Below, piece by piece: positions 13,229-36,594 of a DNA stretch of 64,000 nt. The translations under genes were made by a program, and so were the position numbers. The DNA is taken from positions 1,352-65,351 of the forward strand of contig CAZNKG010000004.1 in assembly GCA_964573635.1 (NCBI GenBank), written 5' to 3'. Origin of the DNA: an uncultured Desulfatibacillum sp. GTDB lineage: Bacteria; Desulfobacterota; Desulfobacteria; Desulfobacterales; SpSt-501. Within the stretch, counting starts at the first letter, position 1. Every line of letters starts with the position of its first letter. The notes beneath the pieces were generated by a model. It was not told the origin of the DNA. It worked only from the letters and a program-made list of their open reading frames with translations, and searched no databases.

Positions 13229-13251
13229 GATCAGCCTTCGCCCTCGCCGGA

Positions 13252-13288
13252 CCCGCCCGGGGGCCGCCCGGCGGCGGCCCCGGGCGGG
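13252..13288 (-). other. GC-rich intercistronic stem-loop between phnD and phnE
   Basis: CCCGCCCGGGGGCCGCC / loop CGGC / GGCGGCCCCGGGCGGG gives 16 bp with one bulged G. No U-tract follows. Confidence 0.6.
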
Positions 13289-13300
13289 ACGGGGTCCGGG

Positions 13301-14311: not shown

Positions 14312-14398
14312 GACGTCTCCTTTCAGGTGGTGGATGAGTTCAGGGTACTCTCCGCAAGGCGTTGCGGGGCGTAAACCCGGTTTTCCAACGGCGCGGGC

Positions 14399-15244
14399 TC
14401 AGAGCCCGGCCGCGGCGGCGACCGGCCGGTCGCAGAGATCGAGCCCGAGGGGGGCCGTCCCGTCGAGGTCGAACCCGCCCGCGGTCAGACCGTAGATGCG
14501 CCGCAGGGACTCCGGGGTGAGATCGGCGCTCGGCCCGTCGTAGACCACCCGGCCGGCCTTGAGCGCGACCGATCGCGGGCAGTACTGCAGGGCGAACTGG
14601 ACCTGGTGCAGGCTGACCAGCACCGTCACCCCGTCCGTGCGGTTGAGCGCCGTCAGGCACTCCATCACGAGGCGGGCCGACTCCGGGTCGAGGGAGGCGA
14701 TCGGCTCGTCGGCCAGGATGATCCGGGCGCGCTGCTCCATGGCGCGGGCGATGGCGGCGCGCTGCTGCTGGCCGCCCGAAAGGGTGCTCGCCCGCTGCCC
14801 GGCGTACTCGCTCAGGCAGACGCGGGCGAGCGCCGCCATGGCGCGCGCTTTCTCTTCGCGGGAGAACCAGCCGAGCAGGCTGCGCAGCGTCCCCACCCGG
14901 GCGAGCATCCCGGCCATCACGTTGGTGAGGAGCGGCAGCCGGCCGACGAGGTTGAACTGCTGGAAGATGAAGCCGACCTCGGAGCGGATGGCGCGGATAT
15001 CGGCGGCGACGCGGCCGTTTTTCTGCACCTCGCGGCCGAAGACGCGGATGCCCCCCGAGTCGCGGTCGGCGGGGACAAGCCCCGAGATGTGGCGCAAAAG
15101 CGTCGACTTCCCCGAGCCCGAGGGGCCGATCAAGGCGACCATCTCCCCGGGCGCGACCCGGAGGCTCACCCGGGTGAGCGCCCGGCGCCGCCCGAAGCTT
15201 TTATTGACGGACTCGATCTCCACGGCCGGATGGTCGGCATGCAT
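14399..15244 (-). CDS. phnC: Phosphonate ABC transporter ATPase PhnC
   Basis: [37 protein letters not shown] lies 8 nt upstream of the ATG at 15244. The alternative ATG at 15277 would fall at or before the predicted transcript start. Confidence 0.9.
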
Positions 15245-15444: not shown

Positions 15445-16644
15445 TTGCGGATCATCTTCTTCGCGGGAAAAGGCGGCGTCGGCAAGACCTCGGTCGCCGC
15501 CGCCACCGGCGTCGCGGCGGCCCTCTCGGGCCGGCGGACGCTCGTCCTGTCGCTCGATGTCGCCCACAGCCTGGCGGACATCTTCGACCTCGAGCGCGGG
15601 CTGCTCGACCGCAACCGGGGGCTGCCGGTGCGGGTGGCGCCCGACCTCTGGATCCAGGAGCTCGACATCCAGGAGGAGATCGGCCGCAACTGGAAGCAGA
15701 TCCACGCCTACCTCGCGGAGCTGCTGAACACCGCCGGGCTGGACGAGGTGCTGGCCGAGGAGCTCGCCGTGCTCCCCGGGATGGAGGAGATCAGCCTGCT
15801 GCTCCACATCAACCGCTACGCGCGGCGGAAAAAATTCGATGTCCTGCTGCTCGACTGCGCGCCGACCGGCGAGTCGCTGCGCTTCATCAGCATCCCGGCG
15901 ACGCTCGAGTGGTACCTGAAGAAGGTCTTCCGGCTGGAGCGCGCCCTGGTGAAGGTGGCCCGGCCGATCGCCCGGCGCCTGAGCGACCTCCCGCTGCCCG
16001 ACGACGGCTACTTCCGCGCGATCGAGGAGCTCGGCGCCCGGCTCAAGGGGGTCGACCGGCTCCTCGCCGACCCGGAGGTGACGACCGTCCGCCTGGTGGC
16101 GAACCCCGAAAAGGTGGTCTTGAAAGAGACCCAGCGCGCCTTCATGTACTTCTGCCTCTACCAGATGTGCATCGACGCGGTGATCATGAACCGCGTGCTG
16201 CCGCCGCAGGTGACCGACGCCTACTTCTCCGGCTGGCGCCGGGAGCAGGCGGCGAACCTCGAGTGGGCGCAGGCCTGCTTCCGGCCCGTGCCGGTCATGC
16301 CGGTGGACCTCTTCGGAGCGGAGATCGTCGGCTACGCCAGCCTGCGGGAGCTCGCCCGGCGCCTCTACGGACCGCGCGATCCGCTCGCGCGCTTCGTCGC
16401 CGAAGTGCCCTACCGGTTCGACAAGCAGGACGGCCGCTACGGCCTGCGGCTCAAGCTTCCGTTCGTCGTCCGGGAGGCGATCGACCTGAGCAAGATCGGC
16501 GACGAGCTGATCCTGCGCATCGGAAGCTACAAGCGGCACATCCTGCTGCCGAAGCAGGTGGCCGCGCGGCCGACGGTGAGCGCCCGGGTCGAGGCCCCCT
16601 ATCTCACCATCACCTTCAGCGGAGGGGAGCATGCCCAAGGCTAA
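15445..16644 (+). CDS. ArsA/Get3-family P-loop ATPase (single ATPase domain) with a C-terminal Hsp20/alpha-crystallin-like domain
   Basis: A TTG start with GGAG 7 nt upstream. Deviant Walker A GKGGVGKT and a DCAPTGESLRF switch motif. The C-terminal segment YGLRLKLPFVVREAIDLSKIGDELILRIGSYKRHILLP is a beta-sandwich-like Hsp20-type sequence. Confidence 0.8.
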   Translation: MRIIFFAGKGGVGKTSVAAATGVAAALSGRRTLVLSLDVAHSLADIFDLERGLLDRNRGLPVRVAPDLWIQELDIQEEIGRNWKQIHAYLAELLNTAGLDEVLAEELAVLPGMEEISLLLHINRYARRKKFDVLLLDCAPTGESLRFISIPATLEWYLKKVFRLERALVKVARPIARRLSDLPLPDDGYFRAIEELGARLKGVDRLLADPEVTTVRLVANPEKVVLKETQRAFMYFCLYQMCIDAVIMNRVLPPQVTDAYFSGWRREQAANLEWAQACFRPVPVMPVDLFGAEIVGYASLRELARRLYGPRDPLARFVAEVPYRFDKQDGRYGLRLKLPFVVREAIDLSKIGDELILRIGSYKRHILLPKQVAARPTVSARVEAPYLTITFSGGEHAQG

Positions 16645-17062: not shown

Positions 17063-17335
17063 ATGAACCTTTTTGGAAACGGACTGCGTTTCGGCGGCGC
17101 CGTGGCGATCGGCGCGGCCGCCGTGCTGCTCGCCCCCGTCGTTCTGCCGCTCGTCGCCAGCGTGCTCAAGCCGGTGGTGAAGGGCGTCATCAAGGGCGGG
17201 ATCCTGGCCGTCGAGGGGGCGAAGGCCGCGCTCGCGGAAACCAAGGAGACGATCGAGGACCTCGCGGCCGAAGCCAAGGCCGAAGTCACCGAGAGCCGCA
17301 AGGCCCCGGCCAAGGCGAAGAAGCAGGCCGCCTGA
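17063..17335 (+). CDS. Small membrane-associated protein, DUF5132-like (N-terminal hydrophobic segment, Lys/Ala/Glu-rich amphipathic tail)
   Basis: GGAGGTG lies 5 nt upstream of the ATG. Sequence: GAVAIGAAAVLLAPVVLPLVASVL followed by ETKETIEDLAAEAKAEVTESRKAPAKAKKQAA. The family name is recalled from memory. Confidence 0.7.
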   Translation: MNLFGNGLRFGGAVAIGAAAVLLAPVVLPLVASVLKPVVKGVIKGGILAVEGAKAALAETKETIEDLAAEAKAEVTESRKAPAKAKKQAA

Positions 17336-17373
17336 AGCGGACGCTTGACACCGGCGGAAAAGGGGCCCGTGAC

Positions 17374-17886
17374 GTGGAGCTGCCCGAAGCCGTCCTCTGC
17401 CACCAGAGCGCCCAGCGCCTGCGGTTCCGGGTGCCGGCCCAGCGGGGCGACACGGCCTATTTCGCCAGGGTGGTGAAGGGCCTCTCCGGCCTGCGCCGCT
17501 TCGCGCTGCTCACGGCCAACCCGACGACGGGCAGCGTGCTCTGCGCCGGGGACGACCTCGATCCATCCGCCATCGCGGCGCAGGCAAGCCGCCTGGGGCT
17601 GTTCCGCCTGCGCGAGGACTCCGAGCCCGCCCCCGCGCTGATGCACCGCATCGTCCGGCCGGTGGCCGGGATCGACCGATCGCTCGCCGTGATGACCGGC
17701 GGGAAGATCGATCTCGCCACCGCCGCATTCCTGGCCCTTCTCGCCTCCGGGGTCGTCCAGCTCCTGCGGGGGCGCCTGAGCGTCCCGCCCTGGTACACCG
17801 CCTTTTGGTACGCCTTCGGCCTCGCCACCATGGTGGTGGTCGACCGGGCGGCCCGCCGCGCCGGGGACGCCCCGGTTGCGGACTGA
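17374..17886 (+). CDS. Membrane protein with an N-terminal non-canonical HMA-like (HMA_2-type) domain and a C-terminal two-TM hairpin
   Basis: A GTG start with AAAAGGGG upstream. The sequence AQRLRFRVPAQRGDTAYFARVVKGLSGLRRFALLTANPTTGSVL parallels the N-termini of both P-type ATPases in this window. TM segments are AAFLALLASGVVQLL and YTAFWYAFGLATMVVV. Confidence 0.7.
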   Translation: MELPEAVLCHQSAQRLRFRVPAQRGDTAYFARVVKGLSGLRRFALLTANPTTGSVLCAGDDLDPSAIAAQASRLGLFRLREDSEPAPALMHRIVRPVAGIDRSLAVMTGGKIDLATAAFLALLASGVVQLLRGRLSVPPWYTAFWYAFGLATMVVVDRAARRAGDAPVAD

Positions 17887-18089: not shown

Positions 18090-21000
18090 GTGATTGAGCC
18101 CATCCATACGAAAATCGAAGGCCGGGCGCGGTTCCGGGTCGATGGACTGCTCGGCTCCGACCCCCTCAAGCGGTTTCTCGAAAACCGGCTCGCCCGGGAA
18201 AAGGACATCCTCTCCGCCCGGGCGAACACGCTCACCGGCAGCATCCTGATCAACTACAACTCCAACAACAACCACCACACGATCGCCTTCCTCCTGGAGG
18301 ACATCCTGATGGAGGCGGGCGGCGGCGCGGCGCCGCCGGCCGATCCGCCGGCGGCCGAAGCGGCCGCGGCGCCCCCGCGCCCCTCCAAGGCCCGCGAGCT
18401 TCCCGTCGACGTCCTCAAGCGCTTCCTCGCCCCGCCGCCGGCGGCCCGGGCCCCCGAGAAGAAGCCCTGGCACACGCTCGAGGCCGAGACGGTCGCGGCG
18501 ATCGTGCGCGCCGACCCGGCGGCGGGGCTTTCCGAGGCGCTCGCCGCCGAGCGTCTCCGGGAGCATGGCCCGAACATCCTGCCGAAGCCCGCGGCGCGCT
18601 CGGGGGCGGCGATCTTCTTCGAGCAGCTCAATTCGCTGCCGGTCTACCTCCTCGGCGCGGCCGCCGGCATCTCGGTCCTCACCGGGGGGCTGCTCGACGC
18701 GGCCGTGATCGGCGCCGTCGTGCTCGCCAACGCCGCGATCGGCTATTTCACGGAGAGCGGCGCCGAGAAGACCATGGAGTCCCTGAAGGATCTCGTGCAC
18801 CCCACGGCGGAGGTGCTGCGCGGCGGCCGCGAGATCCATTTGCCGGTCGAGGAGGTGGTCGTGGGCGACCTCGTCGTGCTCAAGCCCGGGACCTACGTCG
18901 CTGCCGACTGCCGGCTTTTGGCCGCCGACCGGCTGAGCGTCGACGAGTCGATGCTGACCGGCGAGAGCCTGCCGGTCCACAAGGAGACCGCGCCGCTCCG
19001 GCACGAGAACACCCCGCTCGCCGACCGCACCAACATGGTCTACATGGGGACCCTCGTCACCGGCGGGCAGGGGCTGGCGGTCGTGGTGGCCACCGGCCGC
19101 CACACCGAGGTGGGGACGCTGCAGGCCATGCTCGCGGAGACCGTGACCCCGCGGACCCCGATCGAGCTCCAGCTCGAGCGCATGGGCAACCAGCTCGTCG
19201 TCGCCTGCGGCGCCATCTGCGGCGTGGTCTTCGGGATCGGCTTCGTGCGCGGCTACGGCCTCATCCAGATGCTCCAGATGGCCATCTCGCTCGCCGCCTC
19301 GGCGGTGCCCGAGGGGCTTCCGGCCGCCGCCACGATCAACTTCGCCATGGGGATCACCGATCTGCGGCGCCACGGGGTGCTCGTCCGGCGGCTGCAGGCC
19401 GTCGAGACCCTCGGCGCGGTGCAGACGGTCTGCCTCGACAAGACCGGCACCATCACCGAAAACCGCATGTCGGTGACCGAGATCGTCGCCGGCGCCTGCC
19501 GCTACGCCGTATGCGACCGCCGCATCGCCCCGCCCGCGGACGGCCGCGACCCCCTCGCCGCCGGCGAGCTCCGCCAGCTGCTCACCGTCTGCGCGCTGTG
19601 CAACGAGATCAAGATCGCCGCGACCGGTCCGGCCGGCGCGCTCGAGTTCTTCGGCTCCTCCACCGAGAAGGCGCTCGCCGAGGTGGCGGCCGCGGCCGGC
19701 TTGGATATCCTCGGGCTGCAGGAGGAATTCCGCTTCATCGGCCACCGCCTGCGCGCGGAAAACCGCCTCTTCATGAGCAGCCTCCACGCCTGCCCCGCGC
19801 AGGAGTGCCACGCCATCTTCACCAAGGGCAGCCCGCACGAGGTGCTCGACCGCTGCGACCGGGAAATGGTGGACGGACGCGTGCGGCCGATCTCCGAAGA
19901 CCGCCGCCAGGAGATCCACATCGAAAACGACCGCATGGCCGGCCGCGGCCTGCGGGTGCTCGGCTTCGCGTTCAACCGCTTCGCCCTGAACGAAGAAATC
20001 GATGAGGCCGCCCCCATGGTCTGGCTGGGGCTCGTCGGGATGGTCGACCCGGTGCGGCCGGGGGTGAAGGAGCTGATCGCGGTCTTCCACCGCGCCGGGG
20101 TCGAGACGGTCATGATCACCGGCGACCAGAGCACGACGGCCTACGCCGTCGCCCGCGAGCTCAACCTCGGGGGCGACAAGCCGCTCAAGATCCTGGACTC
20201 CGCCGAGCTTGCCTCCCTCGACCCCGAGCGGCTGCAGGCGCTCGCCAAGAACGTGCACGTCTACTCGCGCGTGAGCCCCGCCCACAAGCTGCGCATCGTC
20301 CAGGCGCTCCAGGCCGCCGGCCGGATCGTGGCCATGACCGGCGACGGCATCAACGACGGCCCGGCGCTCAAGGCCGCGAACTTGGGCATCGCGCTCGGCG
20401 AGTCGGGGACCGACGTCGCGCGCGAGGTGGCCGACATCATCATCGCCGGCGACCGCCTGGAGGAGCTCGTTCAGGCGCTGCGCGGGGGGCGCACGACCTA
20501 CGGGAACATCCGCAAGTCGGTGCACTTCTTCCTGTCGACCAACATGACCGAGATCATGGTCATGTTCGTCTGCATGGCGCTCGGGCTGGGCTTCCCCTTG
20601 AACGTGATGCAGCTTCTGTGGATCAACATCATCTCGGACATCTTCCCCGGCCTCGCCCTTTCGCGGGAGCCGGCCGAGCCGCAGATCATGTCGCGGCCGC
20701 CGCGCCCGGCCGGGGACCCGCTCTTCTCCGGAAGCGACTTCCGCCGGATGGCGCTCGAGTCCGCCGTCATCTCGGCCGGGGCGCTCGCGGCCTACGCCGT
20801 CGGCATCCGGCGCTACGGCCAGGGCCCGCAGGCGAGCGCGCTCGCCTTCCAGACGCTCGTCTTCGGCCAGCTGCTGCACGCCTTCAGCTGCCGCAGCGAC
20901 CGGCACGGCCTGCTCGACCCCGGCCGCCCGCCGGCGAACCCCTATCTCACCGCGGCCGTGGGCGGCTCGCTCGCGCTGCAGGCGCTCACCCTTTTCGTCC

Positions 21001-21143
21001 CCGGCCTGCGGGGGTTTCTCGGACTCGCGCCGCCAGCGATCGCCGACCTCGCGGTCATCGCCGCCGGCGCGCTGCTGCCGTTCCTCGCCAACGAGTCCCG
21101 CAAACGGGTCCGCGCGACCCCCGACCATGAGGTGATCCCGTGA
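18090..21143 (+). CDS. P2-type (SERCA/PMCA-like) cation-transporting P-type ATPase with an N-terminal HMA-like domain
   Basis: Cation_ATPase_N-like WHTLEAETV...GLSEALAAERLREHGPNILP. TGES (LTGESLPV), PEGL in TM4 (19308-19319), DKTGTIT, TGDQ, GDGINDGPALK. TM5 has STNMTEI and TM6 has WINIISD (20619-20639). Confidence 0.9.
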   Translation: MIEPIHTKIEGRARFRVDGLLGSDPLKRFLENRLAREKDILSARANTLTGSILINYNSNNNHHTIAFLLEDILMEAGGGAAPPADPPAAEAAAAPPRPSKARELPVDVLKRFLAPPPAARAPEKKPWHTLEAETVAAIVRADPAAGLSEALAAERLREHGPNILPKPAARSGAAIFFEQLNSLPVYLLGAAAGISVLTGGLLDAAVIGAVVLANAAIGYFTESGAEKTMESLKDLVHPTAEVLRGGREIHLPVEEVVVGDLVVLKPGTYVAADCRLLAADRLSVDESMLTGESLPVHKETAPLRHENTPLADRTNMVYMGTLVTGGQGLAVVVATGRHTEVGTLQAMLAETVTPRTPIELQLERMGNQLVVACGAICGVVFGIGFVRGYGLIQMLQMAISLAASAVPEGLPAAATINFAMGITDLRRHGVLVRRLQAVETLGAVQTVCLDKTGTITENRMSVTEIVAGACRYAVCDRRIAPPADGRDPLAAGELRQLLTVCALCNEIKIAATGPAGALEFFGSSTEKALAEVAAAAGLDILGLQEEFRFIGHRLRAENRLFMSSLHACPAQECHAIFTKGSPHEVLDRCDREMVDGRVRPISEDRRQEIHIENDRMAGRGLRVLGFAFNRFALNEEIDEAAPMVWLGLVGMVDPVRPGVKELIAVFHRAGVETVMITGDQSTTAYAVARELNLGGDKPLKILDSAELASLDPERLQALAKNVHVYSRVSPAHKLRIVQALQAAGRIVAMTGDGINDGPALKAANLGIALGESGTDVAREVADIIIAGDRLEELVQALRGGRTTYGNIRKSVHFFLSTNMTEIMVMFVCMALGLGFPLNVMQLLWINIISDIFPGLALSREPAEPQIMSRPPRPAGDPLFSGSDFRRMALESAVISAGALAAYAVGIRRYGQGPQASALAFQTLVFGQLLHAFSCRSDRHGLLDPGRPPANPYLTAAVGGSLALQALTLFVPGLRGFLGLAPPAIADLAVIAAGALLPFLANESRKRVRATPDHEVIP

Positions 21144-22318
21144 TCTTCACATCCGAATCCGTTACGGAAGGCCATCCGGACAAGCTCTGCGACCAAATCA
21201 GCGACAGCATCGTCGACCACTTCCTCAAGCAGGACCCCTACTCCCGGGTGCGCGCCGAGTGCGCGGTCTCGAGCGCGATCATCTTCATCGCCGTGCGCTA
21301 CGCCTCCGAGGCCAAGGTCGACTTCTCCTACCTCGCCCGCAAGGTGATCCAGCGCATCGGCTACGACCAGCCGGACTTCAACGCCAAGATATGCAGCATC
21401 CTTTCGGCCCCGCAGGAGCTGCCGCTCAACATGGCGCACCGCTTCGACGAGGAGAAGCTCACCGACGCGGAGATCGACCGGGTCGCGGCCAAGAACCAGG
21501 TGACGCTCTTCGGGTTCGCCTGCGACCAAACCCCCGAGCTCATGCCGCTGCCCATCATGCTGGCGAACCGCCTCACCCGGCGCATGTCCGAAGTCCGCCA
21601 CCAGAAGATCCTGCCCTACCTGCTGCCGGACGGAAAGGTCCAGGTGGCGGTCACCTTCGACGGCGGCCGGCCGGTGCGCATCCACAGCCTGACCATCATG
21701 GCGAGCCTCGACCAGCCCCGGCAGGTCGACGCCGACAAGCTCGCCGCGGCCCTGGTCGACAGCGTCATCCAGCCGGTCTTCAAGCATGAAAAAATCAAGC
21801 CCGACAAGGAGACGCGCATCCTCGTCAACCCCGACGGCCCCTACGCGGGCGGCCCGACCCACCACTCCGGGCTGACCGGCCGCAAGAGCGCGGTCGACAC
21901 CTACGGCGAGTACGCCCGGCACAGCGGCGACGCGCTGAGCGGCAAGGACCCCATGCGGGTCGACCGCATCGGGGCCTATGCCGCGCGCTACGCCGCCAAA
22001 AACATCGTCGCCGCCGGGCTCGCCTCCCAGTGCGAGGTCATGCTGAGCTACTCCATCGGCATCACCCGTCCGGTGAGCCTCCAGGTCCAGACCTTCGGAA
22101 CCGGGAAGGCCGCCGACGAGAAGATCCGCAAACTCCTCGAGCGGCACTTCGAGTTCCGCATGGCGGGGATCATGAAGCACTTCCGCCTGCGCACCCTGCC
22201 GGCGCGCCACAGCGAGGGCTATTTCCAGCGCCTCGCCGCCTACGGCCATTTCGGCCGCAGCGACATGGACCTGCCCTGGGAGAAAACCGACAAGGCCGAG
22301 CTGCTCAAGGCCGGCTGA
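21140..22318 (+). CDS. Divergent S-adenosylmethionine-synthetase (MetK) paralogue
   Basis: The GTG start overlaps the ATPase stop (GTGA). It has FTSESVTEGHPDK, LTGRK and SGKDPMRVDRIGAYAARYAAKNIV. The canonical GAGDQG reads AAKNQV, GDxGLTGRK reads HHSGLTGRK, and HGGGAFSGKD reads HSGDALSGKD. Confidence 0.85.
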   Translation: MIFTSESVTEGHPDKLCDQISDSIVDHFLKQDPYSRVRAECAVSSAIIFIAVRYASEAKVDFSYLARKVIQRIGYDQPDFNAKICSILSAPQELPLNMAHRFDEEKLTDAEIDRVAAKNQVTLFGFACDQTPELMPLPIMLANRLTRRMSEVRHQKILPYLLPDGKVQVAVTFDGGRPVRIHSLTIMASLDQPRQVDADKLAAALVDSVIQPVFKHEKIKPDKETRILVNPDGPYAGGPTHHSGLTGRKSAVDTYGEYARHSGDALSGKDPMRVDRIGAYAARYAAKNIVAAGLASQCEVMLSYSIGITRPVSLQVQTFGTGKAADEKIRKLLERHFEFRMAGIMKHFRLRTLPARHSEGYFQRLAAYGHFGRSDMDLPWEKTDKAELLKAG

Positions 22319-22948: not shown

Positions 22949-23227
22949 CTATGCCGGAGTCTTTTTATGATACGTCCGGCATCGCGGGTAGTCCGCGCAG
23001 CGGAAGCGCAGCCAGGCGCCGCGGCGCTGATAGACGTGCATGGGCTTGCCGCAGGCGGGACAGGACGGGCGTTCTTCGGGGGCAAGCTGCCCCGGGCCCC
23101 TGAGCGTGAATTGGCGCCGGCAAACCTGGCACAGGAAGCGCTTCTTGCCGTTCGCCGTGCAGCCGTAGCGGTAGATGGCATCGGAGCGGCAGCGCGGGCA
23201 GTGGATCCCTTCGATCAATTTGCGCAT
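22949..23227 (-). CDS. Small double zinc-ribbon protein (an IS1/IS1595-type N-terminal finger plus a topoisomerase-type C4 finger); not a transposase
   Basis: CPRCRSDAIYRYGCTANGKKRFLCQVCRRQF and CPACGKPMHVYQRRGAWLRFRCADYPRC. The start is taken at MRKLIEG; the upstream ATG at 23257 is also possible. Confidence 0.6.
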   Translation of the reverse strand: MRKLIEGIHCPRCRSDAIYRYGCTANGKKRFLCQVCRRQFTLRGPGQLAPEERPSCPACGKPMHVYQRRGAWLRFRCADYPRCRTYHKKTPA

Positions 23228-23321
23228 CGCCCCTCTCGTCCGGCCGGGGCGGCGCACCGCGGCCGGTTCTCCGGCTGCGGCGGCCGCTCGCCTGTGTCGG
23301 GCGCGATGATGACCCCGGCGT

Positions 23322-23359
23322 GTGAGAATCGGACTAGGCGCGGGTTAGAAGGCGGTTCG
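23322..23359 (-). promoter_or_regulatory. Candidate Pho box upstream of the zinc-ribbon gene
   Basis: Plus strand: GTGAG 23322, ACTAG 23333, GTTAG 23344, GTTCG 23355, in 11-bp phase. They read CTnAC-type toward the minus-strand gene. Confidence 0.45.
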
Positions 23360-23360
23360 G

Positions 23361-23651
23361 TCAGATGCCGCGGAGCGGCCGCTTGGCCGGCCGCATCGCT
23401 TCGAAAAGCTCCGCATCGCGGGGATCCCGCACCCGCGGCCGGGCTTCATAGCGCATGAATTCGATGAACTGCTTGATCCGCTCGGCGTATTGCCTCCCGC
23501 AGCGCTCCCGCAGCGGATCGCCGGAGCACCGCCGCAGCAGCCGGCGCTCGGCCTCCGTCGCCTCGCGGTCGGCCAGATGAATCATTTCGTAATAGTCCTT
23601 GTCCCGAACGGCCCCCATGAAATCGGAGAACTTGCAATCCTTGGAGATCAT
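23361..23651 (-). CDS. Hypothetical 96-aa protein
   Basis: ATG at 23651 (MISKDCKFSDFMGAVRDKDYYEMIHLADRE...) with normal composition. An A6G9 tract forms the RBS region. No family was recognised. Confidence 0.5.
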   Translation of the reverse strand: MISKDCKFSDFMGAVRDKDYYEMIHLADREATEAERRLLRRCSGDPLRERCGRQYAERIKQFIEFMRYEARPRVRDPRDAELFEAMRPAKRPLRGI

Positions 23652-23747
23652 GCCCCCCCCCTTTTTTCGGTTGCCGCCCCCGTCGCCCGCCCGCCGGGGG
23701 CGGCAGCGGTCTTTCACGGTCGGCCAAGGAATGGATAAATGCGGATT

Positions 23748-23774
23748 GTTAGGCTTTTATTAGGATTCGGTTCA
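23748..23774 (-). promoter_or_regulatory. Candidate Pho box upstream of the 23361-23651 gene
   Basis: Plus strand: GTTAG 23748, ATTAG 23759, GTTCA 23770, in 11-bp phase, 97 nt upstream of the minus-strand ATG at 23651. Confidence 0.45.
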
Positions 23775-23922
23775 AACGGGCGCCTCGGTTTCACGGTTCG
23801 ACCCGGCCGGCGTGCCCACCGCGTTTTGCCAATCCGGGAAAGCTGGTTTATGGAGACGGCGGCGATCTGCACTCAAACGCGGCGGGCGGCGTTGCGCCGG
23901 CGCGCCGGGGAGGAGATGACCG

Positions 23923-26847
23923 GTGGCCGATGACCGCGGCGCGGCAGTCGAGCTGATCCACAGGCTTCCGGAAAGGGCGCGGTTCCGGGTGGCGGGACTG
24001 AAGGGCGACCTTCACCGGGCGCGCTTCCTCGAGCAGGCGCTCGGGGAGCGGGCGGGCATACGCCGGGCGGCGGCAAGCCCCGTGACCTCCACGGTCCTCA
24101 TCCGCTTCGCCCCCGGCCGGCCGGTGGAGGAGGTGGCGGCGGCCATCCGCGAAGCGATGGCGGCCGAACTCCCCGAGGGGCAGCCGGCCTTCACCGCGCC
24201 GGAGGGCGCCGCCCGCCGGCCGGGGAAGGGGTGGCCGCCGCCCTGGGCGATGCTTTCGGCCGCCGAGGTGCTGCGGCGCTTCGAGCTCTCCGCTGAAGCC
24301 GGCCTTTCGCCGGAGGCTGTCGCGGAGCGCCGCCGCCTGTACGGGTCGAACCGCCTGCCGGCAATGGCCCCGCGCGACCTGCCGGCCATCTGGAAGTCCC
24401 AGGTGACGAGCCTTCCGGTGGTCTTGACCGCCGCGGCCGCCCTGCTGTCGCTCCTTTCCGGGGCGCTCGCCGAAGGGGCGCTCGCGCTGGCGATCGTGGC
24501 GCTGAACGCCGCCATCGGCGCCTTTTCCGAAAACCGCTCCGAGCGCCTTCTCGACGCGGTGCGGGAATCGGTGGAGCTCAAGGCCCGGGTGGTGCGCGGC
24601 GGACGCCTCACGGAGATCGCCTTCGAGGAGGTGGTGCCGGGCGACCTCCTCGACCTGCAGCCGGGCGACCGGGTGGCGGCCGATGCCCGGCTGGTGCAGG
24701 CGGAGGGGCTGGGCGTCGACGAGGCCGCGCTCACCGGAGAGAGCCTCCCGGTGCAGAAATCCGCCGGCCGGCTTCCTCCGGACGAAGCGGCGGCGGCCGG
24801 CTTCGGCGCCAACATGCTTTTCCGCGGCACCCTGGTGGTGGAGGGCAGCGGCCGCGCCGTGGCCGTGGCCACCGGGGCGCAGACCGTCCTCGGCCGGCTG
24901 CAGAACTTCCTGGGCGCGGTTTTTCCGCCCGAGGCCCTGGTCGCCCGGGAGATGCGCCGCCTGTCGCGCCGCTTCGCCCTTCTCGGCCTGGGTGCGGCGG
25001 GGCTTTTCGCCGTGGCGGCTCTCTGGCGCGGCGCCGGGCTGCTCGGCGCGCTCCGGGGAGCGCTCGCCCTCATGGGCGGGGCGATCCCGTCGGGGCTCTC
25101 CACGCTGACGCTCGGCGCCTTCGCCCGCGGCCACCGCGAGCTGCGGCGAAACCGCGTCCTCGTCCGCCGGCTCCGGGCGCTGGGAAACCTCGCCTCGGCC
25201 CAAATCGTCTGCTTCGACAAGACCGGCACCCTCACCCGCAACCGCATGCGCGTCGCCGTGCTCGCCGCGGCCGGTCCGGCTTTCCGGCCGGCCTTCCGGG
25301 CCCAGCCGCCGGCCTTCATGCAGGACGCCGACGTCCGCTGGCTCGTCTCGCTCGCCACCCTCTGCAACGAGGCTTTCATGGTGCACGAAGGCGCCCAGTC
25401 CCTCGAGGGCTCCTCGACGGAGCAGGCCATCATCCGTCTTGCGGAGCGCGCGGGCATGAACTCGACCGCCTTTCGCAGCGACCACCCCATCCGCGACATC
25501 CGCCACCGCAGCGAGGGCGAGCCCTTCATGGTCACGATTCACCGCTGGACGGCCGACCGCGAGCTCGCGGTGATGAAGGGCAGCCCCCACGAGGTCCTGG
25601 AGCGCTGCGGCCGGGTCCACCGCGGCGGCCGCGCCCACCCGCTCGGGGAGGCCGAGCGCTCCCGCATCGAAGCCGAGAACTCCCGCATGTCCGGAGCGGG
25701 ACTGCGGGTCCTGGGGGTGGCCTACCGCTGGGACCCCAAGGGGGACGCGGAGTCCCTGTGCCCCCCGGGCCGCGGGCTCGTCTGGTCGGGTCTGATCGGG
25801 CTCTCCGATCCGGTGCGCCGGGAGGCGGAGGGGGTGATCCGGGGGCTGCAGCAGGCCGGCCTGCGCACGGCGGTCATCACCGGCGACCAGAGCCTGACCG
25901 CGCAGCACATCGGCCGCGAGCTGGGGCTTTCCGCCGGCGGGCCGCTGCGCATCTTGGACGCCGCGGACCTGAGGGCCCTGAGCCCCGAGGGGCTCAAGAG
26001 CGTCGTGCTGCGCACCCACGTCTTCGCGCGCCTCTCCCCCACGCAGAAGCTTCAGATCATCCAGGCCTATCAGCGCGCCGGGCTCGGGGTGGTGATGGTC
26101 GGGGACGGGTTCAACGATGTGCTCGCCCTGAAGGTCGCCGATGTGGGCATCGCCATGGGCCGCGACGGGGCCGAGCTCGCCCGGCGGACCGCCGATCTCG
26201 TGCTCGAGGACGACGACCTCGAAAACGTGCCGCGCGCCGTGGCGAACGGACGCGCCTTCTATGCCAACATGCGCCGCAGCCTGCGCTTCGTCCTCGGCGC
26301 GGCCCACATGGACGTCGCCGCGGATCTCGCGGCGCGCAGCGGCATCGGCGGAGCGGGGCCGAGCCCCTGGCAAAGCGTCTGGGGAAACCTGGCCTGCCTC
26401 GCCCTCGCGCTGGAGCCGGCCGCCGCCGACGGCCGCGAGCCCCCGCCGCCCGCAGACCTGATCACCCCCGCGGAGGCCCGCGCCGCAACCGCCGACGCGG
26501 TCAAGGCCCTGGCCGCCGCCGCGGTCGCGGGCGGGCTCGGGCGGGCGGGCGCCGGCCCCGGGAGCGATGCGGATCGGCTGCTGTGGCAGAGCGTCTCGCT
26601 CAACCAGCTGCTCCTCGCCTTCACCTGCCGGGGCCGCGACGGAGCCGCGCCGCCGCCCAACCGCAGGCTCCAGGCGGTGTTCTGGGCGCTCGCTGCAAGC
26701 CACCTCTTCGCGGCCCTGCTCGCCGGCGGGCCCGTCCGGGCGGCGGGCGACATCCTCGCGCTCGCCGCGGGCGCGGCGCTATTCCGCCGGCTCGCTCAGG
26801 CCGAGCCGTCGACCGCTTCGGCCGCCTCGCCCCCCCCGCGGGCGTGA
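23923..26847 (+). CDS. P-type ATPase paralogue with an N-terminal HMA-like domain and degenerate ion-site and C-terminal membrane regions
   Basis: A GTG start with GGGGAGGAG 7 nt upstream. It has ERARFRVAGLKGD...TSTVLIRF, GLSPEAVAERRRLYGSNRLP, LTGESLPV, DKTGTLT (25216-25230), TGDQ and GDGFNDVLALK. TM4 reads PSGL (25087-25098) instead of PEGL, and the TM6-equivalent reads WGNLACL (26380-26400). Confidence 0.85.
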   Translation: MADDRGAAVELIHRLPERARFRVAGLKGDLHRARFLEQALGERAGIRRAAASPVTSTVLIRFAPGRPVEEVAAAIREAMAAELPEGQPAFTAPEGAARRPGKGWPPPWAMLSAAEVLRRFELSAEAGLSPEAVAERRRLYGSNRLPAMAPRDLPAIWKSQVTSLPVVLTAAAALLSLLSGALAEGALALAIVALNAAIGAFSENRSERLLDAVRESVELKARVVRGGRLTEIAFEEVVPGDLLDLQPGDRVAADARLVQAEGLGVDEAALTGESLPVQKSAGRLPPDEAAAAGFGANMLFRGTLVVEGSGRAVAVATGAQTVLGRLQNFLGAVFPPEALVAREMRRLSRRFALLGLGAAGLFAVAALWRGAGLLGALRGALALMGGAIPSGLSTLTLGAFARGHRELRRNRVLVRRLRALGNLASAQIVCFDKTGTLTRNRMRVAVLAAAGPAFRPAFRAQPPAFMQDADVRWLVSLATLCNEAFMVHEGAQSLEGSSTEQAIIRLAERAGMNSTAFRSDHPIRDIRHRSEGEPFMVTIHRWTADRELAVMKGSPHEVLERCGRVHRGGRAHPLGEAERSRIEAENSRMSGAGLRVLGVAYRWDPKGDAESLCPPGRGLVWSGLIGLSDPVRREAEGVIRGLQQAGLRTAVITGDQSLTAQHIGRELGLSAGGPLRILDAADLRALSPEGLKSVVLRTHVFARLSPTQKLQIIQAYQRAGLGVVMVGDGFNDVLALKVADVGIAMGRDGAELARRTADLVLEDDDLENVPRAVANGRAFYANMRRSLRFVLGAAHMDVAADLAARSGIGGAGPSPWQSVWGNLACLALALEPAAADGREPPPPADLITPAEARAATADAVKALAAAAVAGGLGRAGAGPGSDADRLLWQSVSLNQLLLAFTCRGRDGAAPPPNRRLQAVFWALAASHLFAALLAGGPVRAAGDILALAAGAALFRRLAQAEPSTASAASPPPRA

Positions 26848-28652
26848 TGCCCGAGCAGCGCGGCCAGCCCCTCCGGCCCCATGTAGCGCTGCAGGGTCTT
26901 GCGGTCCGTGCGCAGCAGATCCACCAGGATCAGGCCGTCCATGACATCGCCGAAGCTGCGGTCGATGTTGAAGGCGAGCAGCTGCCCCCCCAGGTTCAGA
27001 TAGTGGCGCAGGAGGACCGGCACCTCCTTGTTCTGGAACTCGATGTCCCCGATCAGCCCGCAGACCTCCTTGAAGTCCTGGAACCAGGCGTCCGGCGCGA
27101 TCAGCCCGCAGCCGGGCACGCGGATCGGCTTCAGGCGCACGGGCCGCCGCGGCCGCACCATGAGGGCGAGGTCCTTCGCCTGGCTGTGCGCGAGCAGCGT
27201 CGTGGCGATCAGCCGCCGGGTGAGGTCGCTGTAGTCGCGGCTGATGCTGACCGGCCCGAAGAGGAAGCGGTAGCGCGGGTTGCGGGCGATGAAGCCGCCG
27301 ATCCCCTTCCACAGCAGCAGCAGGGCGGAGTAGGATTTCTGGTACTCCGGCCGGATGAAGGAGCGCCCCATCTCGAGCGCCGGCCCGATCGCCTGGAAGA
27401 ACTCCCGGCGGCTGTGGAACAGCGTGCTGGTGTAAAGACCCTCCGGACCGTGCCGCGCGATGATCTGGTCGGTCGGCCCGAGGCGGTAGGCGCCCACGAT
27501 CTCCCCGGCCGCCTCATGGATGACGAACAGGTGCAGGTAGAGATCGTCGAAGCGGTCGAGATCGAGCGCGCGGCCGGTGCCTTCGGCGGCGGCGCGGAAG
27601 GAGATCTCCCGCAGGCGGCCGATCTCCCGCAGGCAGCGGGGGATCTGGCCGGCGGTGGCGAGCCACACGGCGAAGCCGCCGCTTTGCGCCAGCCGCTGGG
27701 CGGCGGGCAGCCGCGCGATCTCCCGTTTGAGCCGCTGCGGGTCCTCGGCCGCCGCGAGCGGCGCCATCCGGGCGGCGGCCGGCCGACCGGGCCGGGCGGG
27801 CGGGCGCCGGGCCGGCTTGGGCGCGCAGCCGAGAATGTAGGTGCGCCACCGCAGGTACTCCGTGAGGCGGCGGTCGTCGCCGTAGTGCTGGAGCCAGCGG
27901 TGGGGGATCGGGGCGCCGATTTTCATCGGGATCACGGCGCCGCGCTTGTGGAGCAGCTCCCGGGCGAGCAGCGCCGTGCGCAGGCGCGGGTGCACGAGCC
28001 CGGCCGCCTGGAACCGGGCGCGGTTGCGGCCGCGGATGAAGACCGGCACGACCGCGGCCTGCGCGCGGCGGACGACCGCCCCGGCGGCGGGGCTCCAGGC
28101 CGGGTCGGTCACCTCGCGGGTGGCAAGCTTCAGGTGGGAGACCTCCCCGGCCGGGAAGACCATGAGCAGCCCGCCGCCCTGGACCCAGCGCACCGCCTGG
28201 CGCAGCGCCCCGAGGTTGGCGCGCGCCGAATGCGTCCGGCCGAAGGGGTCGACCGGGATGGCGAGCGGCCTGAGCTGCGGAATGCGGTTCAGCATGTAGT
28301 TCACGAGAAGCTTCACGTCGGAGCGCACCGACAGCAGCAGCTCGGCGAGCAGGAGCCCCTCGATCCCGCCGAAGGGGTGGTTCGCCACGACCACCACCGG
28401 CCCCCGGGCGGGGATGTTTTCACGCTCCGCGGCGGTCGTTTCGGCGCGCACCTCGAGCGCGCCGAGCACCGCCCGGATGAACTTAAGCGGGTCGGATTGC
28501 GCGCCGTGCGCGGCATAGATGCGCTCGCATTCGCCCAGTCCGAGCAGGCTTTCGAGCGGGCGCGCGGCGGCCGCGAGCCAAGCGCCCTTCCACCCCGCGG
28601 CCGGGCCGGGGATAAGCGAGAAAATCCGGGATTCGAGAGCCGAGATCGCCAT
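26796..28652 (-). CDS. Bifunctional acyltransferase, OlsF-like aminolipid (ornithine-lipid-type) synthase: N-terminal PlsC-type domain plus C-terminal OlsB-type GNAT domain
   Basis: AGGAGGTGG lies 6 nt upstream of the ATG at 28652. It has NHPFGGIEG and FPAGEVS acyltransferase motifs. The C-terminal region (LYLHLFVIHEAAGEIVGAYRLG...LEMGRSFIRPEYQKSY) matches the OlsB/Acetyltransf_5 type. Confidence 0.75.
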   Translation of the reverse strand: MAISALESRIFSLIPGPAAGWKGAWLAAAARPLESLLGLGECERIYAAHGAQSDPLKFIRAVLGALEVRAETTAAERENIPARGPVVVVANHPFGGIEGLLLAELLLSVRSDVKLLVNYMLNRIPQLRPLAIPVDPFGRTHSARANLGALRQAVRWVQGGGLLMVFPAGEVSHLKLATREVTDPAWSPAAGAVVRRAQAAVVPVFIRGRNRARFQAAGLVHPRLRTALLARELLHKRGAVIPMKIGAPIPHRWLQHYGDDRRLTEYLRWRTYILGCAPKPARRPPARPGRPAAARMAPLAAAEDPQRLKREIARLPAAQRLAQSGGFAVWLATAGQIPRCLREIGRLREISFRAAAEGTGRALDLDRFDDLYLHLFVIHEAAGEIVGAYRLGPTDQIIARHGPEGLYTSTLFHSRREFFQAIGPALEMGRSFIRPEYQKSYSALLLLWKGIGGFIARNPRYRFLFGPVSISRDYSDLTRRLIATTLLAHSQAKDLALMVRPRRPVRLKPIRVPGCGLIAPDAWFQDFKEVCGLIGDIEFQNKEVPVLLRHYLNLGGQLLAFNIDRSFGDVMDGLILVDLLRTDRKTLQRYMGPEGLAALLGHHARGGGEAAEAVDGSA

Positions 28653-28719
28653 CGGCGGTCCACCTCCTGGCAGGTCGTGATGTTGAAAGGCCAGGCTACC
28701 CGCCGATTTATAGGCTCCG

Positions 28720-28746
28720 ATTAGCATCGATTTAGTTTTCGGTTCA
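28720..28746 (-). promoter_or_regulatory. Candidate Pho box for the OlsF-like gene
   Basis: Plus strand: ATTAG 28720, TTTAG 28731, GTTCA 28742, in 11-bp phase, 68 nt upstream of the minus-strand ATG. TATAAA/TAGCCT-type hexamers lie proximal to it. Confidence 0.5.
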
Positions 28747-28786
28747 GCCGTCTCTTTTTTCGGCGTCGTCAATATTTAGTGCTATC

Positions 28787-36540: not shown

Positions 36541-36594
36541 CTAACGCAAGGTTAACCGCTTGCTAACATAGACCTAACAATTCGGCCATACCTT
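36541..36594 (+). promoter_or_regulatory. Candidate Pho box (four repeats) plus -10-like TACCTT for pstC
   Basis: CTAAC 36541, TTAAC 36552, CTAAC 36563 and CTAAC 36574, in exact 11-bp phase. TAnnnT lies at 36589-36594. The ATG is at 36636. Confidence 0.7.

What the first reader, a model, noticed from the sequence alone, without database searches (positions are those of the whole stretch)
23923..26847. Second P-type ATPase keeps the catalytic motifs but has lost canonical ion-coordinating residues
The phosphorylation and nucleotide motifs are intact: LTGESLPV, DKTGTLT at 25216-25230, TGDQ and GDGFND. The membrane sites differ from the neighbouring paralogue. The TM4 signature is PSGL (25087-25098) rather than PEGL. 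The TM6-equivalent reads WGNLACL (26380-26400), where the paralogue at 18090-21143 has WINIISD. The C-terminal membrane region is Ala/Gly-rich and shorter. In SERCA-type pumps the TM4 Glu and the TM6 Asn/Asp coordinate the transported cation. This paralogue may therefore transport something else, act as a regulator or sensor, or be decaying. Its 3' end also overlaps the convergent OlsF-like gene by 52 nt.
Basis: partly seen in the sequence, partly recalled or inferred. Interest (0 to 1): 0.6.

Follow-up and report, generated by a model that had tools for sequence, protein, structure and literature searches.

The report
Conserved ion-site-less P-type ATPase paralogue
This gene is an intact, selectively maintained member of an undescribed branch of calcium-pump-like ATPases that keeps its whole ATP-driven engine but has dismantled the classical metal-binding pocket, and it travels with a normal pump and phosphate-starvation and lipid-remodelling genes, so it probably does something other than pump calcium.

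Summary
ATPase2 (23923-26847, 974 aa) keeps TGES, DKTGT, KGxP, DPxR, TGD and GDGxND. It has PSGL in place of PEGL, and a 5-residue deletion in M6 removes the Asp.

- **Not decay.** At least 77 cluster representatives (43-80% identical) share the same new motifs. All ten genomic copies have open frames. dN/dS is 0.37, the same as neighbouring enzymes, while the gene's own disordered linker sits at about 1.
- **Uneven constraint.** Cytoplasmic domains are as conserved as in canonical relatives. Membrane helices are less conserved, and M5, M6 and M8 are more polar.
- **Stepwise loss.** The M6 deletion arose once. Basal members still carry the M4 Glu, which was lost later.
- **Genomic company.** Every ATPase2-bearing genome searched also has the canonical CoBaHMA-fused ATPase1. 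In two other sampled lineages the order ATPase1, MetK-like, ATPase2 is contiguous. Elsewhere ATPase2 sits beside OlsF, GT4, PhoH2, PS-decarboxylase, MBOAT or pst genes.

My best reading is an active P-type ATPase with a remodelled, non-classical site that works in the ATPase1/MetK-like phosphate-starvation module. Its substrate is unknown. I class it as a new variant of a known kind.

The parts
23923..26847 (+). ATPase2: CoBaHMA-fused P2-like P-type ATPase of the 'M6-deletion / Glu-less' clade (974 aa). GTG start, with GGAGGAG 7 nt upstream.
23944..24117 (+). N-terminal CoBaHMA (Pfam HMA_2) domain, residues 8-65. It keeps the signature His13, Arg18 and Arg20 and has no CxxC.
   Evidence: Pfam gives 18.9 bits, below the cut-off of 30. 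Orthologues carry PF19991. H13, R18 and R20 are at least 90% conserved. AF2 gives a beta-alpha-beta fold with pLDDT 87-90.
24118..24243 (+). Disordered linker, residues 66-107. It evolves neutrally and serves as an internal control.
   Evidence: pLDDT is 37-62. dN/dS is 1.35 and 0.88 in two species pairs.
24733..24744 (+). TGES dephosphorylation motif of the A domain.
   Evidence: Invariant in 104 sequences.
25087..25098 (+). M4 motif PSGL, in place of PEGL. The clade consensus is IP[S/A/T]GLSTL. The Glu309 equivalent is lost and the Pro312 equivalent is Ser.
25183..25185 (+). Gly421, at the position of SERCA Glu340 (SVETLG). Canonical relatives have Glu in 99% of sequences; the clade has Gly in 96%.
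   Evidence: The position is fixed by its spacing from the phosphorylated Asp.
25216..25230 (+). DKTGT phosphorylation motif.
26101..26118 (+). Hinge motif GDGFND, followed by VLAL in place of xPAL.
26305..26337 (+). Remodelled stripe on M5: His795, Asp797 (the Glu771 equivalent, Asp in 88%), Asp801 (D/E in 70%) and Arg805 (R/K in 71%). Canonical pumps are hydrophobic at positions 801 and 805.
26380..26400 (+). M6 motif WGNLACL. The Asn796 equivalent is kept and the Thr799 equivalent is Cys. A 5-residue deletion after Cys825 removes the Asp800 equivalent.
26602..26607 (+). M8 Asn894-Gln895. Asn is clade-specific (96%). Gln corresponds to SERCA Glu908.
26796..26847 (.). 52-nt convergent overlap with the OlsF-like gene, inside the non-conserved C-terminal tail.
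18090..21143 (+). ATPase1: canonical CoBaHMA-fused P2-type pump (PEGLP, STNMTE, WINIISD, Cation_ATPase_C). It co-occurs with ATPase2 in every genome searched.
21140..22318 (+). MetK-like gene overlapping the ATPase1 stop codon. In other lineages it lies directly between ATPase1 and ATPase2.
17356..17886 (+). Free-standing membrane CoBaHMA (HMA_2) protein of the same conserved cluster.
17063..17335 (+). DUF5132 small membrane protein of the cluster.
15445..16644 (+). ArsA/Get3-like ATPase with an HSP20-like tail, syntenic in relatives.
26796..28772 (-). OlsF-like bifunctional acyltransferase, a convergent neighbour. Lipid-remodelling neighbours recur beside ATPase2 in other lineages.
23748..23774 (-). 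Phased repeats TGAAC-N6-CTAAT-N6-CTAAC in the AT-rich divergent intergenic region. They resemble the CTAAC array upstream of pstC and are oriented toward the small minus-strand gene (23361-23651).
   Evidence: Conserved in L023.

Best explanation
ATPase2 is a functional member of an old, undescribed lineage of CoBaHMA-fused P2-like P-type ATPases.

Shown:
- It keeps every residue needed for the E1/E2 phospho-enzyme cycle, that is ATP binding, Asp432 phosphorylation and TGES-driven dephosphorylation.
- It keeps the ten-helix P2 fold.
- The classical cation pocket was dismantled in two steps. First a 5-residue M6 deletion removed the Asp. Later the M4 Glu and the second M4 Pro were lost, the M5 Glu became Asp, and the P-domain Glu that couples the cation sites to the phosphorylation site became Gly.
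- In their place the clade fixed new polar and charged residues in the outer halves of M5 and M8.

Inferred: it still turns over ATP and moves its M1-M6 helices, but it cannot occlude Ca2+ the way SERCA, PMR1 or LMCA1 do. It therefore acts as a second, re-specialised pump-like component of the same pathway as ATPase1 and the MetK-like protein. In this genome that module is embedded in a phosphate-starvation and phosphorus-free-lipid island. The ligand is unknown.
For: - **Catalytic motifs.** They are invariant in 104 sequences. TIGR01494 scores 219.7 against a cut-off of 62.3.
- **Structure.** The AF2 model has pLDDT 87 and pTM 0.79, with helices at all M1-M10 positions. Foldseek aligns about 890 columns to LMCA1 and SPCA1, with TM-score 0.65-0.72.
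- **Clade motifs.** 77 clade members carry IPxGLSTL, xxDxxx[DE]xxx[RK], WxNLxC plus the 5-residue gap, and INQLLY.
- **Phylogeny.** The clade is monophyletic (SH-aLRT 100). Basal deletion-bearing members still have PEGL.
- **Domain-specific constraint.** Cytoplasmic domains are as conserved as in canonical relatives (A 0.63 vs 0.63, P 0.75 vs 0.74 and 0.71 vs 0.73, N 0.51 vs 0.49). Membrane segments are lower, at 0.44-0.55 against 0.72-0.79.
- **Selection.** dN/dS is 0.37 overall, M1-M2 0.11, M5-M10 0.43 and the linker 1.35. OlsF is 0.38, PHP-GT4 0.35 and ATPase1 0.25.
- **Polarity.** M5, M6 and M8 are less hydrophobic and carry more charge than in canonical relatives. M1-M4, M7 and M9 are unchanged.
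- **Co-occurrence.** All 10 ATPase2 genomes have an ATPase1 type. The background is 32 of 400 in the phylum sample.
- **Synteny.** ATPase1, MetK-like and ATPase2 are contiguous in L019 and L021 and syntenic in 7 genomes of the same genus.
Against: - No biochemical or expression data exist.
- I could not inspect the model's coordinates, so whether the new polar residues line a cavity is unknown.
- Reduced conservation across all membrane helices fits a relaxed, merely anchoring membrane domain as well as it fits a new binding site.
- His795, Asp/Glu801, Arg/Lys805 and Cys825 are conserved in only 66-88% of members, less than expected for a strict ligand set.
- In G389, G421, L022, L024/L025 and L020, ATPase2 is not adjacent to ATPase1.
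- CtpE-type pumps also lack the M6 Asp and are still reported to move Ca2+ (PMC10654040).
Confidence: 0.55

Rival explanations
1. ATPase2 is a non-transporting regulatory or sensory partner. It uses its ATP cycle, or its CoBaHMA domain, to control ATPase1 or the MetK-like protein, for example as a heteromer, and moves nothing across the membrane.
For: - Co-occurrence with ATPase1 is strict (10 of 10 genomes).
- ATPase1, MetK-like and ATPase2 form an operon-like order in L019 and L021.
- All membrane helices show relaxed conservation.
- The Glu340 equivalent, which couples the phosphorylation site to the ion sites, is lost.
Against: - Regulatory pseudo-enzymes usually lose catalytic residues, but here every one is invariant, including the TGES motif needed for turnover.
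- M1-M4 remain under strong purifying selection, with dN/dS of 0.02-0.40.
- New polar residues are fixed in M5 and M8.
- Several lineages have ATPase2 far from ATPase1.
- No heteromeric P2 pump is known.
Confidence: 0.2
2. ATPase2 is still a small-cation or proton pump. It uses a reduced site made of M5 Asp797, M6 Asn822 and M8 Asn894/Gln895, as CtpE (P6) pumps work without the M6 Asp and H+-ATPases work with a single carboxylate.
For: - Asp797 is conserved in 88% of members, Asn822 in 94%, Asn894 in 96% and Gln895 in 83%.
- The basal 'intermediate' members have the P6-like pattern of PEGL without the M6 Asp.
- CtpE lacks the M6 Asp and is reported as a Ca2+ uptake pump (PMC10654040).
Against: - Both acidic ligands of site II are absent.
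- Ion-pumping clades keep their M4-M6 helices far more conserved, at 0.72-0.79 against 0.44-0.55 here.
- Asp797 is replaced by Asn, Gly or Glu in 12% of members.
- The coupling Glu340 equivalent is Gly.
Confidence: 0.2
3. ATPase2 is a decaying pseudogene or relic paralogue.
For: - Canonical ligands are lost.
- There is no Pfam Cation_ATPase_C hit.
- The C-terminal half is Ala/Gly-rich.
- dN/dS in M5-M10 is about twice that of ATPase1.
Against: - The frame is open in all ten genomes.
- 77 or more cluster representatives share derived motifs.
- dN/dS is 0.37, against about 1 in the gene's own linker.
- Catalytic residues are invariant.
- The clade is ancient, with a stem length of 0.37.
Confidence: 0.03
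4. The finding is an alignment artefact, and the acidic ligands are present but shifted.
For: M5 does contain acidic residues (Asp797, Asp801), and Glu831 follows M6.
Against: - The M4 position is fixed by exact spacing from the phosphorylated Asp (42 residues, as in SERCA) and by the invariant Pro389.
- The M6 register is fixed by the invariant Trp820 and Asn822 and by the LALxxEP motif after the gap.
- Glu831 aligns with the canonical loop Glu of ALEPPE.
Confidence: 0.02

Closest known systems
P2A Ca2+-ATPases (Listeria LMCA1, SPCA1/PMR1, SERCA)
   Same: - They are the best sequence and structure matches. phmmer gives 6.6e-94 to LMCA1, and Foldseek aligns about 890 columns.
- The A, P and N domains and all catalytic motifs are the same.
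- The ten-helix layout and the Cation_ATPase_N domain are shared.
   Different: - The M4 Glu309, M4 Pro312 and M6 Asp800 equivalents are missing, and the M5 Glu771 equivalent is Asp.
- The Glu340 equivalent is Gly.
- NCBIfam scores are far below the family cut-offs: 376.6 vs 798.3 for PMR1-type and 328.1 vs 703.4 for SERCA-type.
- It has an N-terminal CoBaHMA domain.
- M5, M6 and M8 are more polar.
ATPase1 of the same window and its clade (CoBaHMA-fused canonical P2-like pumps followed by a MetK-like gene)
   Same: - The domain architecture is the same, including CoBaHMA.
- The two proteins are 38% identical over the full length.
- They share the gene cluster and always occur in the same genomes.
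   Different: - ATPase1 keeps PEGLP, STNxSE, WxNLxxD and a Cation_ATPase_C hit.
- The two belong to separate, well-supported clades, so ATPase2 is not a recent duplicate.
P6 ATPases (Mycobacterium CtpE type), as described in PMC10654040
   Same: They lack the M6 Asp while remaining functional. The basal 'intermediate' relatives of ATPase2 show the same PEGL-without-Asp pattern.
   Different: - CtpE keeps PEGL and replaces the Asp with Ile, with no deletion.
- ATPase2 lacks the Glu as well.
- The phylogenetic relationship to CtpE was not tested here.
P4 lipid flippases and P5 ATPases
   Same: They are P-type ATPases that gave up the M4 Glu / M6 Asp cation site for a large non-metal substrate while keeping the full catalytic cycle. 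ATPase2 repeatedly neighbours lipid-modifying enzymes.
   Different: - There is no sequence affinity: TIGR01652 scores 38.8 against 431, and TIGR01657 scores 166 against 618.
- The M4 motif is PSGLS, not PISL or PPxxP.
- No CDC50-like partner was seen.

Membership tests
P-type ATPase superfamily (HAD-IC, TIGR01494) | DKTGT phosphorylation motif, TGES, TGD and GDGxND hinge motifs, and a family model score above the cut-off | tested here: met
   All motifs are present and invariant across 104 relatives. TIGR01494 scores 219.7 against a cut-off of 62.3.
P-type ATPase superfamily (HAD-IC, TIGR01494) | A/P/N headpiece on a helical membrane domain | tested here: met
   AF2 gives pLDDT 87 and pTM 0.79. 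Foldseek gives probability 1.00 to LMCA1, SPCA1, H,K-ATPase and Na,K-ATPase over about 890-980 columns.
P2A Ca2+-ATPase (SERCA / PMR1 / LMCA1) | PEGL motif with the cation-ligand Glu in M4 | tested here: not met
   The motif is PSGL. The clade has S 58%, A 30%, T 9% and E 0%, against E 100% in 142 canonical relatives.
P2A Ca2+-ATPase (SERCA / PMR1 / LMCA1) | M6 Asn-x-x-[ST]-Asp, with Asp ligating the cation | tested here: not met
   Asn is kept. A 5-residue deletion removes the Asp in all clade members.
P2A Ca2+-ATPase (SERCA / PMR1 / LMCA1) | Equivalog model score above the cut-off | tested here: not met
   TIGR01522 scores 376.6 against 798.3, and TIGR01116 scores 328.1 against 703.4.
P4 phospholipid flippase | Family model (TIGR01652), PISL-type M4 motif, CDC50 subunit | tested here: not met
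   TIGR01652 scores 38.8 against 431.25. The M4 motif is PSGLS. No CDC50-like gene was seen among the neighbours.
P6 (CtpE-type) ATPase | PEGL retained, with the M6 Asp replaced (per PMC10654040) | tested here: not met
   The M6 Asp is absent, but PEGL is also lost in ATPase2. Only basal relatives P0123-P0125 show the P6-like pattern. Phylogenetic placement with CtpE itself was not tested.
CoBaHMA (Pfam HMA_2, PF19991)-fused proteins | N-terminal HMA-like domain without CxxC, with a conserved His before beta1 and basic residues in beta1 and beta2 | tested here: inconclusive
   The Pfam score of 18.9 is below the cut-off of 30 for this protein. Most orthologues carry PF19991. H13, R18 and R20 are at least 90% conserved, and AF2 gives a confident beta-alpha-beta fold. 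The signature is as described in PMC8890360.
Pseudogene | Frame disruptions, or neutral evolution with dN/dS near 1 | tested here: not met
   No stops occur in ten genomic copies. dN/dS is 0.37 and 0.21 in two pairs, against a linker control of 1.35 and 0.88.

The most novel reading that the evidence does not exclude
The clade is a bacterial P-type ATPase that evolved, inside the P2 family and independently of eukaryotic P4 and P5 pumps, to move a non-metal ligand. The ligand could be a lipid head group, such as the phosphorus-free lipids made by its OlsF, GT4, PSD or MBOAT neighbours, or an anion. It would pass along a re-polarised M4/M5/M6/M8 pathway during phosphate starvation. The CoBaHMA domain would sense anionic lipid, and ATPase1 with the MetK-like protein would handle the cation and polyphosphate side of the same response.
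Probability: 0.15. Interest if true: 0.9.

Novelty: new variant of a known kind. Interest (0 to 1): 0.6.

Why it matters
P-type ATPases are defined by a conserved engine and a variable membrane site. New substrate classes, such as lipids for P4, helices for P5A and polyamines for P5B, have each come from lineages that abandoned the M4 Glu / M6 Asp pocket. The Palmgren review (PMC10654040) expects further prokaryotic families.

This clade offers a natural series: canonical, then deletion-only, then fully Glu-less. That series shows the order in which a cation site is dismantled while the catalytic cycle stays under full selection.

The clade is also tied to a conserved but uncharacterised module (CoBaHMA proteins, DUF5132, an ArsA-like ATPase and a methionine-blind MetK paralogue) and to phosphate-starvation lipid remodelling. 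Finding its ligand would either add a new substrate class for bacterial P-type ATPases or give the first example of a catalytically active, non-transporting P-type 'pseudo-pump'.

Tried and rejected
- **Pseudogene or decay.** Rejected on open frames, clade size, dN/dS and invariant catalytic residues.
- **Misalignment of ligands.** Rejected by three alignment methods and by fixed spacing from invariant anchors.
- **Recent duplicate of ATPase1.** Rejected by the tree.
- **Meaningful 3' overlap with OlsF.** Rejected. The overlap varies from none to 130 nt in relatives and lies in an unconserved tail.
- **Transition-metal site from His795, Asp797 and Cys825.** Considered and set aside. His and Asp are two residues apart, so they face opposite sides of the helix, and His and Cys are conserved in only 66% and 87% of members.
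- **Pho-box control of ATPase2.** A three-repeat phased array exists in the divergent intergenic region, but it is oriented toward the small minus-strand gene. The sigma-70 scan found nothing, so direct Pho control of ATPase2 is not shown.
- **Literature.** The searches found no paper describing this clade. The CoBaHMA paper by Gaschignard et al. 2024 is not held.
- **Alignment of upstream regions with L011 and L016.** I gave the wrong coordinates, so only the G000-L023 pair is informative.


Full report
**The observation**

The ORF 23923-26847 (+) encodes 974 residues. These are LTGESLPV, DKTGT at 25216-25230, TGDQ, GDGFND, PSGL at 25087-25098 and WGNLACL at 26380-26400. The paralogue at 18090-21143 has PEGL and WINIISD.

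Pfam finds E1-E2_ATPase, Hydrolase, Cation_ATPase and Cation_ATPase_N, plus a sub-threshold HMA_2 hit. It finds no Cation_ATPase_C, which the paralogue matches at 6.9e-47. NCBIfam places ATPase2 in the P-type superfamily (TIGR01494, 219.7 against a cut-off of 62.3). It falls far below every subfamily cut-off; the best are PMR1-type at 376.6 against 798.3 and SERCA-type at 328.1 against 703.4. phmmer similarity to solved pumps (best LMCA1, 6.6e-94) stops at residue 792, the start of M5.

**The ligands are missing, not displaced**

BLASTP against the paralogue gives 38% identity over the full length and puts a 5-residue gap in M6. MAFFT alignments of 104 and 232 relatives give the same register. 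Invariant anchors fix that register:
- Pro389 lies 43 residues before the phosphorylated Asp, exactly as SERCA Pro308 lies before Asp351.
- Trp820 and Asn822 fix M6.
- The LALxxEP motif follows the gap.

In SERCA1a numbering (established knowledge of that pump) the changes are:
- Glu309 becomes Ser.
- Pro312 becomes Ser.
- Glu771 becomes Asp.
- Thr799 becomes Cys.
- Asp800 is deleted.
- Glu908 becomes Gln, as it also is in the canonical relatives.
- Glu340 of SVETLG becomes Gly.
- The Pro of NDxPAL becomes Leu.

**It is not decaying**

The search for homologous proteins returned about 80 cluster representatives at 43-80% identity. All carry the same derived motifs:
- M4: IP[S/A/T]GLSTL.
- M5: a stripe of His (66%), x, Asp (88%), x3, Asp/Glu (70%), x3, Arg/Lys (71%).
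- M6: WxNLxC plus the 5-residue gap.
- M8: INQLLY.

TGES, DKTGT, KG, DPxR, TGD, the Lys of M5-P, and GDGxND are invariant across all 104 aligned sequences. All ten genomic copies found have uninterrupted frames.

I computed NG86 dN/dS between this gene and its 80%-identical orthologue on L023.

| Region or gene | dN/dS |
|---|---|
| ATPase2, whole gene | 0.37 |
| ATPase2, M1-M2 | 0.11 |
| ATPase2, P+N domains | 0.30 |
| ATPase2, M5-M10 | 0.43 |
| ATPase2, disordered linker 66-107 | 1.35 |
| OlsF-like | 0.38 |
| PHP-GT4 | 0.35 |
| ATPase1 | 0.25 |
| ATPase1, M5-M10 | 0.21 |
| MetK-like | 0.12 |

The linker serves as a built-in neutral control. A second pair (L024 vs L025) gives 0.21 overall, 0.88 for the linker, 0.02 for M3-M4 and 0.28 for M5-M10.

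**Constraint differs by domain**

Mean pairwise identity within the ATPase2 clade equals that within the canonical clade for the cytoplasmic domains. It is much lower for every membrane segment.

| Segment | ATPase2 clade | Canonical clade |
|---|---|---|
| A domain | 0.63 | 0.63 |
| P domain, part 1 | 0.75 | 0.74 |
| N domain | 0.51 | 0.49 |
| P domain, part 2 | 0.71 | 0.73 |
| M1-M2 | 0.50 | 0.71 |
| M3-M4 | 0.50 | 0.72 |
| M5 | 0.44 | 0.72 |
| M6 | 0.55 | 0.79 |
| M8 | 0.50 | 0.72 |

Hydropathy is unchanged for M1-M4, M7 and M9. It is lower for exactly the three helices that, together with M4, form the ion pocket (best 17-residue Kyte-Doolittle window).

| Helix | ATPase2 clade | Canonical clade |
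|---|---|---|
| M5 | 1.09 | 1.43 |
| M6 | 0.96 | 1.58 |
| M8 | 0.83 | 1.23 |

M5 and M8 also carry more charged residues. The core has therefore become more polar. It has not been filled in with hydrophobic residues.

**Structure**

AlphaFold2 with the 104-sequence alignment gives pLDDT 87 and pTM 0.79. It places a confident CoBaHMA-like beta-alpha-beta domain at residues 9-80 and a disordered linker after it. Helices fall at M1-M8 and in the M9-M10 region. DSSP reads residues 914-959 as one continuous helix. This subclade has a 6-residue shorter M9-M10 loop.

Foldseek against the PDB aligns about 890 columns to LMCA1 and SPCA1 and about 975 to the H,K- and Na,K-ATPases. The TM-score on the target is 0.65-0.72. 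I could not inspect the coordinates.

**Evolution**

A maximum-likelihood tree of 66 sequences (IQ-TREE, LG+G4) gives three results:
- The Glu-less clade is monophyletic, with SH-aLRT 100 and a stem length of 0.37.
- Together with five 'intermediate' representatives it forms a clade with support 100.
- ATPase1 lies in a different canonical subclade.

All five intermediates have the 5-residue M6 deletion. Three (P0123-P0125) still have PEGL and a canonical-like M5. So the deletion that removed the Asp came first and happened once. The Glu was lost later. ATPase2 is an old paralogue, not a recent copy.

A further, separate lineage (P0141, P0148, P0187, P0196, P0233, P0237, P0249) lost the M4 Glu but kept the M6 Asp and gained Lys or Arg in M8.

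**Distribution and context**

The ATPase2 type occurs in 8 of 19 genomes of the same genus and in 2 of 400 other sampled genomes of the phylum. The ATPase1 type occurs in 32 of those 400. All ten ATPase2 genomes also have an ATPase1 type.

Within the genus the order ATPase1, MetK-like, about 190-aa protein, small minus-strand gene(s), ATPase2 is syntenic. It is preceded by an ArsA-like ATPase, a 77-aa protein, DUF5132 and a free-standing CoBaHMA membrane protein.

In two other sampled lineages, a Syntrophobacteraceae-labelled MAG (L019) and an unlabelled assembly (L021), ATPase1, MetK-like and ATPase2 are directly contiguous on one strand.

Elsewhere ATPase2 neighbours lipid and Pho genes:
- L022: the two OlsF halves, PhoH2, GT4, PS decarboxylase and a pst-like ABC system.
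- L024/L025: an MBOAT cluster.
- G389: PHP-GT4 plus PhoH2.
- This window and L023: OlsF, PHP-GT4, PhoH2, PAP2 and a GT.

One divergent member (P0091) is solitary.

HMA_2 is the CoBaHMA domain. It has been linked to intracellular Ca-carbonate biomineralisation genes and proposed to bind anionic lipid (bioRxiv 10.1101/2024.07.07.602159 and PMC8890360).

Earlier notes of this scan describe the MetK paralogue as methionine-blind and the island as Pho-regulated. I re-checked only the CTAAC arrays. One three-repeat phased array lies at 23748-23774, but it points toward the small minus-strand gene, not toward ATPase2.

**Interpretation**

These points are shown:
- The phospho-enzyme machinery is intact and under selection.
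- The classical site I and site II carboxylates are gone.
- A new conserved polar and charged pattern sits on the outer halves of M5 and M8.
- ATPase2 depends genomically on the ATPase1/MetK-like module.
- Lipid-remodelling and Pho genes recur as neighbours.

It is inferred that the protein still cycles ATP and moves M1-M6 but cannot occlude Ca2+ in the SERCA manner. It would then serve as a re-specialised, pump-like second component of that module.

I cannot tell whether it carries a different ligand (a proton or small ion through Asp797/Asn822/Asn894-Gln895, an anion, or a lipid head group) or only regulates. CtpE-type P6 pumps show that losing the M6 Asp alone does not abolish Ca2+ transport (PMC10654040). 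The further loss of the M4 Glu and the Glu340 equivalent, together with the relaxed conservation of the pocket helices, argues against a classical cation pump.

**Novelty and limits**

No held paper describes this clade, and the primary CoBaHMA paper is not held. I rate this a new variant of a known kind, of moderate-to-high specialist interest.

Noticed in passing
P0123-P0126 and P0133; no window coordinates: 'Intermediate' relatives carry the same 5-residue M6 deletion. Three of the five keep PEGL and a canonical-like M5, which is a P6/CtpE-like motif pattern. They branch basal to the ATPase2 clade.
   Followed up: partly
P0141, P0148, P0187, P0196, P0233, P0237, P0249: A second, independent lineage of CoBaHMA-type P2-like ATPases lost the M4 Glu (P[A/V/T]GLP) but kept the M6 Asp and has Lys or Arg in M8. 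This is another candidate for altered specificity.
   Followed up: no
window 22949-23717 (-), compared with L019 and L021: In this genus a double zinc-ribbon gene and a roughly 96-aa gene on the minus strand sit between the MetK-like/190-aa genes and ATPase2. In L019 and L021 ATPase2 follows the MetK-like gene directly. The ancestral operon therefore seems to have been split by an insertion.
   Followed up: partly
window 23748-23774 (-): Phased repeats TGAAC-N6-CTAAT-N6-CTAAC lie in the only AT-rich patch of the intergenic region. They resemble the CTAAC array upstream of pstC (36541-36578), are conserved in L023, and are oriented toward the small gene whose conserved start is at 23651.
   Followed up: partly
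L022:10001-12975: The ATPase2 orthologue P0070 is called as 861 aa, followed at once by a 129-aa ORF that starts at its stop codon. This may be a frameshifted or split C-terminal membrane part.
   Followed up: no
L024:2458-3969 and L025:3985-5496: An MBOAT acyltransferase with two unannotated genes lies divergent from ATPase2 orthologues P0057 and P0062. This is another lipid- or acyl-transfer neighbour.
   Followed up: no
window 25758-28724 (+) and 23848-26703 (-): Very long ORFs (988 and 951 aa) overlap ATPase2 and OlsF in other frames. They are the usual artefacts of 71-75% GC DNA and fail the GC3 criterion.
   Followed up: yes
G024:C17:9028-11235 (-) and 12826-15033 (+): Two P-type ATPase matches with identical scores lie in inverted orientation 1.6 kb apart in a genome of the same order. 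This may be an inverted duplication.
   Followed up: no
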